Assembly: GCA_964016885.1 (NCBI GenBank)
Contig: OZ024753.1
Span: 46,438,001-46,502,000 of the forward strand
Reading direction: 5' to 3'
DNA length: 64,000 bases
From: Eledone cirrhosa
Taxonomy: Eukaryota
How positions within the stretch are numbered: the stretch's first letter is position 1; each line of letters starts with the position of its first letter. The notes below the pieces were generated by a model. That model had not been told where the DNA came from. It saw nothing but the letters and a program-made list of their open reading frames with translations, and searched no databases. Below are positions 11,411-11,760 of this stretch, piece by piece. Made by a program: the position numbers and the translations under genes.

Positions 11411-11760
11411 AACGGAAAAAATGAAAGAAATTTCATTTCCCACTCTTAGTACGGTTGTTACTTAAATATAAGTATGTACAGGTACATACATATATGTATA
11501 CAGACGTACAGTAGTATGTATATATATATACATACATGCACACATATATATATATATATTTACGTATGGATTCACCGAACATTTATTATAATGCTCGGTG
11601 TGTTTGTAAACAAACATCCCGTATTAAGCCGTAGTGTCCAGCAACCATCGTTGCTCGTTTGTTCAACACTGACAAAGGAACGCTGTACTAGTTTCAACCG
11701 TATTAGCTATCGTCAGCAACCTTCCTGCCAGATTGTTGAACGTATATACTTACCTTACTT
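11411..11760 (-). mobile_element. Diverged solo copy of the 495-bp unit
   Basis: Shares GAAATTTCATTTC.CACTCTTAGTA, CAGACGTACAGTAG, TTGTTCAACACTGACA and TGCCAGAT.GTTGAACGT with the array unit. Confidence 0.9.
11677..11725 (-). ncRNA. Minimal type I hammerhead motif in the solo copy
   Basis: Reverse complement: GGAAGGTTG CTGACGA T AGCT-AATAC-GGTT GAA ACTAGT A CAGCGTTCC. Confidence 0.75.

What the first reader, a model, noticed from the sequence alone, without database searches (positions are those of the whole stretch)
11411..11760. Diverged solo copy keeps the hammerhead while its flanks drift
Seen: the flanks are heavily substituted, yet the core differs only at the free position 7 (CUGAUGA to CUGACGA) and GAAACUAGUA is invariant. 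Stem II changes to AGCU/GGUU and still pairs; one stem I pair flips from G.U to U.G, and one pair is lost. Inference: selection on the ribozyme fold, and evidence that the unit is a dispersed mobile family and not just a local satellite.
Basis: partly seen in the sequence, partly recalled or inferred. Interest (0 to 1): 0.75.

Follow-up and report, generated by a model that had tools for sequence, protein, structure and literature searches.

The report
Decaying copy of a hammerhead retrozyme
This is a shortened copy of a self-cutting-RNA repeat whose core occurs about 25,000 times in this animal genome; the ribozyme fold is conserved between the repeat's subfamilies, but this copy's own mutations hit the ribozyme and likely cripple it, so the copy itself is probably an ordinary dead insertion.

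Summary
The copy (11408-11757, minus strand) is real and homologous to the local 495-bp array, but it is not a drifted offshoot of it. It is a 5'-truncated member of another subfamily (B, 422-bp unit) with thousands of near-identical copies; the shared core has 24,749 exact genome matches. The "drifted flanks", C7 and the U·G flip are subfamily traits. Against its own subfamily the copy has few changes, and three hit the hammerhead: a 6-nt deletion removing the loop-1 bulge (9 genome matches versus 6,578 intact) and two stem II substitutions (2 matches). It also lacks the upstream octamer. It is likely a dead or weak copy. It is a metazoan non-LTR retrozyme, likely mobilised by Penelope-like elements. 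Cleavage and expression are untested. This scan reported the same family before on other DNA of this genome.

The parts
11408..11757 (-). 5'-truncated single unit of retrozyme subfamily B (350 of about 422 nt); 3' end at the commonest fixed end site, running into (TA)n
11710..11716 (-). Hammerhead core strand CUGACGA (positions 3-9); C7 is the subfamily B state
11696..11709 (-). Stem II and loop 2; private substitutions at 11700 and 11698 break two family pairs; pairs only in a slipped register
11686..11695 (-). GAAA, 2-bp helix III with palindromic loop, and cleavage triplet GUA; predicted cut between 11686 and 11685
   Evidence: cut site inferred from hammerhead numbering
11717..11725 (-). 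Stem I 5' strand carrying the scar of a 6-nt deletion (near 11721) that removed the loop-1 bulge and two pairs
11677..11685 (-). Stem I 3' strand, identical to the subfamily B majority
11661..11741 (-). Extended outer helix enclosing the hammerhead
   Evidence: (z -3.2 for 11655-11745), helix 1
11097..11410 (.). (TA)n-rich tract abutting the 3' end; inferred target
3383..3993 (-). Inverted arm of the local subfamily A insertion (one hammerhead, core at 3752); outer end at the site equivalent to the solo's 3' end
3994..6997 (+). Main arm of the subfamily A insertion: six 495-bp units, 99-100% alike, six hammerheads; ends at the second fixed site in (TA)n

Best explanation
This is a 5'-truncated copy of a 422-bp hammerhead-carrying repeat subfamily with thousands of copies, likely inserted into (TA)n by a Penelope-like reverse transcriptase, and its private mutations likely leave its own ribozyme weak or dead. 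Shown: subfamily membership, copy numbers, the private changes, the fixed 3' end, loss of the upstream octamer, conserved core and covarying stems between subfamilies. Inferred life cycle of the family: source arrays are transcribed, tandem hammerheads (canonical type I, 2-bp palindromic helix III, so probably acting as dimers) cut the RNA into units that would be circularised, and a Penelope-type enzyme primes on nicked (TA)n at one of two fixed AU-rich sites of the RNA, often from both sides of the break. Selection acts on the RNAs that get re-copied, not on inserted copies such as this one, which decay.
For: Copy numbers. Private damage: deletion in 9 genome matches versus 6,578 intact, the 8 others scattered over different sub-backgrounds and never filling an array; stem II variant in 2 matches, the other lacking the deletion. 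The array unit hits Rfam Hammerhead_HH9 weakly (E 0.019) while the solo hits no hammerhead model at E<=10; own model 84 bits versus 116. Family constraint: core 0 of 12 differences versus flanks 72/370, 134/352, 156/384; 16 of 22 pairs change on both sides, 0 of 500 shuffles, slid controls 1-4. Insertion anatomy: of 58 insertions 24 are head-to-head, 34 single-orientation, 0 tail-to-tail; 58 of 82 3' ends fall at two sites, 57 of them flanked by AT repeat; 34 5' ends scatter. RT plus GIY-YIG elements with long open frames exist in the genome. Matches published features (PMC7229834, PMC4209133, PMC8557442).
Against: No cleavage or RNA evidence. An unpaired base 5' of stem II is tolerated in some natural hammerheads (PMC4209133, part 1) and the slipped stem II is predicted to form, so the solo may keep some activity; minimal Penelope hammerheads lack a defined loop 1. 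The excess of private changes in the ribozyme (3 of about 8 events in about 50 of 350 nt) is not significant (p about 0.09, hand arithmetic). Within B the core alone is not significantly more conserved than flanks (5/450 versus 82/4682, p=0.44). No autonomous partner sharing sequence with the unit was found in 42 GIY-YIG loci. 24 of 82 3' ends are at neither fixed site. Covariation rests on about three independent lineages, and C and E were found with hammerhead patterns.
Confidence: 0.85

Rival explanations
1. One reading: this copy's ribozyme has been kept functional by selection at this locus while its flanks drifted (possibly as a domesticated cleavage element upstream of the RRM/CELF-like gene).
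For: Core intact; slipped stem II predicted at probability 0.85-0.91 and stem I re-pairs as 8 of 9 pairs; an RRM exon starts about 6.4 kb downstream.
Against: Flanks are about 98% identical to the subfamily majority; 32 of 38 unbiased copies also keep the core; loop 1 is deleted; the ribozyme strand is antisense to the RRM exon; single copy lacks a tandem partner for the 2-bp helix III.
Confidence: 0.05
2. The family is a retrozyme mobilised by a LINE-type or other reverse transcriptase rather than a Penelope-like element.
For: No shared pseudo-LTR or 3' end with the Penelope-like loci examined; 5' truncation and inversion also occur with LINEs (own knowledge).
Against: Multi-unit head-to-head arms, two fixed ends about 56-59 nt apart with 14 of 24 two-armed insertions using one of each, (TA)n targeting and no poly(A) tail fit the tandem/inverted structures and one-ended tail described for Penelope-like elements (PMC8557442, passages).
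Confidence: 0.07
3. The units spread as DNA (satellite, Helitron-like or extrachromosomal circles) and the hammerhead is an inherited relic without a role in mobility.
For: Tandem and period-2 arrays can arise by DNA-level duplication; no RNA evidence here.
Against: Strictly polar ends (fixed 3', variable 5', never tail-to-tail); covarying stems in young subfamilies; ribozyme positions carry about half the singleton changes of flanks.
Confidence: 0.03

Closest known systems
Metazoan non-LTR retrozymes (coral, mussel, axolotl; Cervera and de la Pena 2020, PMC7229834; read parts 2-3 of 6, Discussion, passages; supplement unreadable)
   Same: Non-coding tandem and solo units of a few hundred bp, each with one type I hammerhead, thousands to >100,000 copies, GC under 50%, coexisting with Penelope-like elements. 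Axolotl HHR_Amex2 also has a U.U mismatch at the base of stem II and a 2-bp helix III.
   Different: Units here are 422-495 bp (upper end of, and above, 150-450 bp); insertions target (TA)n with two fixed 3' ends and head-to-head arms, which the parts I read do not describe; no RNA or cleavage data here.
Animal retrozymes as non-autonomous Penelope-like sequences (Li, Clavereau, Pollet, bioRxiv 10.64898/2026.07.22.740005; read part 1 of 5 and passages)
   Same: Monomer 'solo' copies described as offspring that might not transpose; Penelope-like origin proposed.
   Different: Their evidence is co-occurrence and phylogeny in 35 mostly vertebrate genomes (main text has no 'octopus' or 'mollusc'); here the evidence is insertion anatomy, and no related pseudo-LTR was found.
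Penelope-like elements, Neptune/Nematis-type and Naiad (Craig et al. 2021, PMC8557442, passages; Cervera and de la Pena 2014, PMC4209133, part 1 of 4)
   Same: 5' truncation, partial tandems, inverted 5' copy, a tail at one end, (TA)n bias, hammerhead in the repeat.
   Different: No coding capacity; hammerhead is of the canonical type (6-bp helix I, 4-bp helix II, loop-1 bulge) rather than minimal; offset between ends is about 56-59 nt versus a 30-40 bp tail.

Membership tests
Canonical type I hammerhead | Core C3-A9, G12-A15.1, U16.1, H17 | tested here: met
   Solo has all 12; 32 of 38 B copies do
Canonical type I hammerhead | Helix I about 6 bp, helix II about 4 bp (family level) | tested here: met
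   helix I 96% paired, 5 of 6 pairs change on both sides; helix II 4 pairs plus U.U at its base
Canonical type I hammerhead | Intact helix II and loop-1 bulge for the tertiary contact (this copy) | tested here: not met
   Bulge deleted, 2 of 4 stem II pairs broken, only a slipped register remains; lowers 'this copy is an active ribozyme', not the family assignment
Canonical type I hammerhead | Short helix III with palindromic loop (dimer mode) | tested here: met
   Two pairs invariant in 13 of 13 rows; palindromic in A, B, C and, with another sequence, E
Canonical type I hammerhead | Rfam gathering threshold | tested here: not met
   No match at gathering score in the window; array unit 18.5 bits to HH9 (threshold 52), solo none
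Canonical type I hammerhead | Self-cleavage | not testable with these tools
   Needs an assay
Metazoan non-LTR retrozyme | Short non-coding tandem units, one hammerhead each, dispersed at high copy number | tested here: met
Metazoan non-LTR retrozyme | No LTR, primer-binding site or polypurine tract | tested here: inconclusive
   No LTR-type architecture among 58 insertions; no tRNA primer search was run
Metazoan non-LTR retrozyme | Expressed as linear and circular monomer RNA | not testable with these tools
   Only contigs of unknown kind were available
Non-autonomous Penelope-like element | 5' truncation, tandem and inverted 5' structure, one-ended tail, microsatellite target | tested here: met
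   same in subfamily C and the window's array
Non-autonomous Penelope-like element | Sequence shared with an autonomous partner | tested here: inconclusive
   None in 42 loci taken from 150 scored of 10,597 GIY-YIG candidates

The most novel reading that the evidence does not exclude
The family is a population of RNA circles copied into (TA)n breaks from both sides by a Penelope-like enzyme; some templates are two-unit circles (arrays alternating ABAB, e.g. ten units with 13 differences between neighbours and none between alternates), and selection for cleavage acts on the many source RNAs, halving variation in the ribozyme even among young copies. The genome would then be a readable record of ribozyme evolution, including a G.U to U.U to U.G path at one stem I pair and a G-C versus U.U switch at the base of stem II.
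Probability: 0.5. Interest if true: 0.7.

Novelty: new member of a known kind. Interest (0 to 1): 0.36.

Why it matters
The copy itself is ordinary: one of many decaying insertions, and a caution that divergence from the nearest array is not divergence from the parent. The family matters more. It gives a large natural series of hammerhead variants with intermediates, and insertion ends that make the proposed but unshown route (Penelope-like enzyme copying retrozyme RNA, probably circular) testable. This copy is a ready natural loss-of-loop-1 control for cleavage assays.

Tried and rejected
Rfam at gathering score: nothing; E-value scan of 3400-12000 was swamped by AT-hairpin miRNA models. RNA runs: no RNA holder listed; laying four coded runs gave only contigs of unknown kind, no use for expression or cut sites. 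Compensatory stem II change in the solo: rejected, variant has 2 genome matches. Deletion as a propagated sub-lineage: rejected. A-to-G editing bias in B copies: not seen (10 A>G versus 5 T>C, p=0.30); the alternating units of L244 differ by mixed substitutions. Autonomous partner: blastn hits in GIY-YIG loci that I could see were nested retrozyme insertions or AT repeats; a likeness between the B 3' region and one Penelope-like 3' UTR was reached by 6 of 200 shuffles in one of nine comparisons and dropped. Target-site duplication for the solo: none discernible in (TA)n; the 36 bases spanning the 5' junction matched nothing else among the fetched loci. snRNA-type promoter parallel with newt satellite 2 is recalled only; search did not return the paper. 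Second alignment without the solo introduced end gaps and was not used for counts. Literature searches for a cephalopod report listed none by title or abstract; the supplement of PMC7229834 was unreadable, file 1 of PMC4209133's was not searched, bioRxiv supplements are closed, so a listing there cannot be excluded.

Full report
OBSERVATION. The stretch 11408-11757 on the minus strand is homologous to the 495-bp array at 3383-6997 (blastn 69% identity counting gaps, E 2.6e-51). Against an array unit the 12 catalytic positions are identical, position 7 differs, stem II differs at 2 of 8 positions and flanks at 44 of 305 aligned columns. Two details are not: stem II pairs only after a one-base slip, and the lost stem I pair results from a 6-nt deletion.

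WHAT IT IS. Searching the genome (G000, 3.0 Gb) with the copy gave 483 candidates; the 40 scored are 94-96% identical apart from itself and lie on 12 contigs. They define a 422-bp unit, subfamily B. A 31-letter core pattern shared by A and B has 24,749 exact matches and 0 for the reversed control; a B flank 31-mer has 8,601. Core-anchored loci show a continuum from A through intermediates to B. A more distant 470-bp subfamily C is young (1,871 candidates, the 40 scored 98-100% alike), and a further family E has the same fold. C7 and the U.G pair are B traits; at that stem I pair G.U, A-U, U.U, U.G and U-A all occur.

WHAT THIS COPY DID. Against the majority of 10 flank-anchored B1 copies spanning the same region, the solo has 7 substituted columns (those copies: 2-10). 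In the ribozyme: a 6-nt deletion near 11721, A to C at 11700, C to G at 11698. Outside: one shared polymorphism (11639), a changed AT tract (11554-11562), two substitutions (11481, 11455) and a 1-nt deletion (11427). The deleted form has 9 genome matches against 6,578 for the intact form; the other 8 lie in different sub-backgrounds, and in L167 only one of four units has it, so it recurs independently. The stem II variant has 2 matches, the other without the deletion. The deletion removes the three-base bulge that A, B, C and E all keep; loop 1-loop 2 contacts are needed for fast cleavage at low magnesium (PMC6155905, passages). The stem II hairpin goes from -2.5 to +0.5 kcal/mol at best. The 5' truncation removes the octamer ATGCAAAT, conserved 80-100 nt upstream of the core in A, B and C (a promoter role is inferred, untested). 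The array unit still matches Rfam HH9 weakly; the solo does not. With a model built from 13 rows including the solo it scores 84 bits against 116 for array units, and 54 of the 69 other matches in 40 flank-anchored loci score higher. Against this reading: the slipped stem is predicted to form, an unpaired base before stem II is known in natural hammerheads (PMC4209133), and the excess of private events in the ribozyme is not significant (p about 0.09 by hand).

I sampled copies by a flank motif, so without bias for the core: 96 copies in 55 clusters, of which 38 clusters had a copy spanning the core and 17 were dropped. 32 of 38 keep all 12 core bases. Core versus flank rates do not differ significantly (5/450 versus 88/4690, p=0.35; singletons p=0.44). 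Core plus stems is lower: 16/1355 versus 88/4690, p=0.096, and 14/1469 versus 82/4682, p=0.03, after splitting B1 and B2. Between subfamilies the core differs at 0 of 12 positions while flanks differ by 19%, 38% and 41% (the C unit used has A17, most C copies have the allowed C17). On 13 rows, 16 of 22 pairs change on both sides, 0 of 500 shuffles reach this, slid controls give 1-4. Caveats: rows are related, about three lineages carry the signal, C was found by a core pattern and E by a stem filter. So selection shows on the propagating lineage, weakly among young copies, and not on this copy.

HOW IT LIKELY WORKS. Among 58 complete insertions in 54 flank-anchored loci, 24 are head-to-head, 34 single-orientation, none tail-to-tail; of 82 3' ends, 29 and 29 fall at two fixed sites (unit positions about 306 and 250), 57 of these 58 followed by AT repeat, and 24 elsewhere; 14 of 24 two-armed insertions use one of each site; the 34 5' ends scatter. 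One locus outside this set has both ends at the same site (L009). The solo ends at the 306 site; the window's array uses both; C behaves alike. Neither site is the ribozyme cut (unit position 31), so priming is internal on a circular or multimeric RNA (inference). These are the marks described for Penelope-like elements (PMC8557442, passages). The genome holds 10,597 GIY-YIG candidates (150 scored), with open frames of 938 and 1,096 aa that carry RT matches and a cysteine linker of the Neptune/Nematis type; 11 of 30 loci share one 3' end running into (TA)n. No partner sharing sequence with the unit was found. Transcription, cleavage, circularisation and the enzyme are inferred from the retrozyme model (PMC7229834, Discussion).

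COMPARISON AND NOVELTY. It works like, and by the testable features is, a metazoan non-LTR retrozyme; the U.U base of stem II has a precedent in axolotl HHR_Amex2. Solo monomers are already described as non-transposing offspring (bioRxiv 10.64898/2026.07.22.740005). Searches listed no paper on this family; unread supplements may. I did not test the organism; earlier notes call it an octopus. My reading was fixed, which showed that this scan had reported the same 422-nt family and its two-armed ends on other DNA; period-2 arrays, which I saw, were also noted before.

VERDICT. Observation partly confirmed, interpretation right for the family and wrong for the copy. New member of a known kind; interest 0.36.

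Noticed in passing
L244 (G000:C1:49,584,308-49,588,126), L098; weaker in L048-L051 and L189: Arrays alternate two unit variants (L244: lengths 420/422, 13 mismatches between neighbours, 0 between alternates for the first six units, then hybrid units). Fits a two-unit template copied repeatedly, or DNA-level duplication of a dimer. L245 and the window's array are homogeneous.
   Followed up: partly
window 18167-18460 (+): Exon encoding the start of an RRM protein (Pfam RRM_1, E 1.2e-7) that looks CELF/Bruno-like by my recall; the solo lies about 6.4 kb upstream, antisense.
   Followed up: no
window 13881 (+), 27565 (-), 52650 (-), 1565 (-)/1697 (+), 13516 (-): Other hammerhead-like motifs of Penelope type, some as inverted pairs; CTGANGA occurs 39 times against 18 expected.
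   Followed up: no
L144, L172-L201: Young 470-bp subfamily C with a G-C pair at the base of stem II, fully changed stems and mostly a GUC triplet.
   Followed up: partly
L103:98-200, L051:2635-2903: Further hammerhead family E with a different palindromic helix III and the same architecture.
   Followed up: partly
L132, L158 and further one search matches: Recurring variant with a C.A mismatch at the base of stem II; possibly a minor older subfamily.
   Followed up: no
window 12026-12635: Another high-copy repeat, 93-98% identical in many fetched loci, bounded by AT tracts.
   Followed up: no
L202-L226 (11 loci): Penelope-like family with C-terminal GIY-YIG whose copies share one 3' end running into (TA)n, about 650-900 nt after the domain, with no hammerhead motif seen in the first 600 nt.
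   Followed up: partly
window 55168-57141 (-): 658-aa frame with a below-threshold Pfam RIP match (20 bits, cut-off 21, no passing stretch); six overlapping long frames there suggest a tandem repeat; judged spurious.
   Followed up: no
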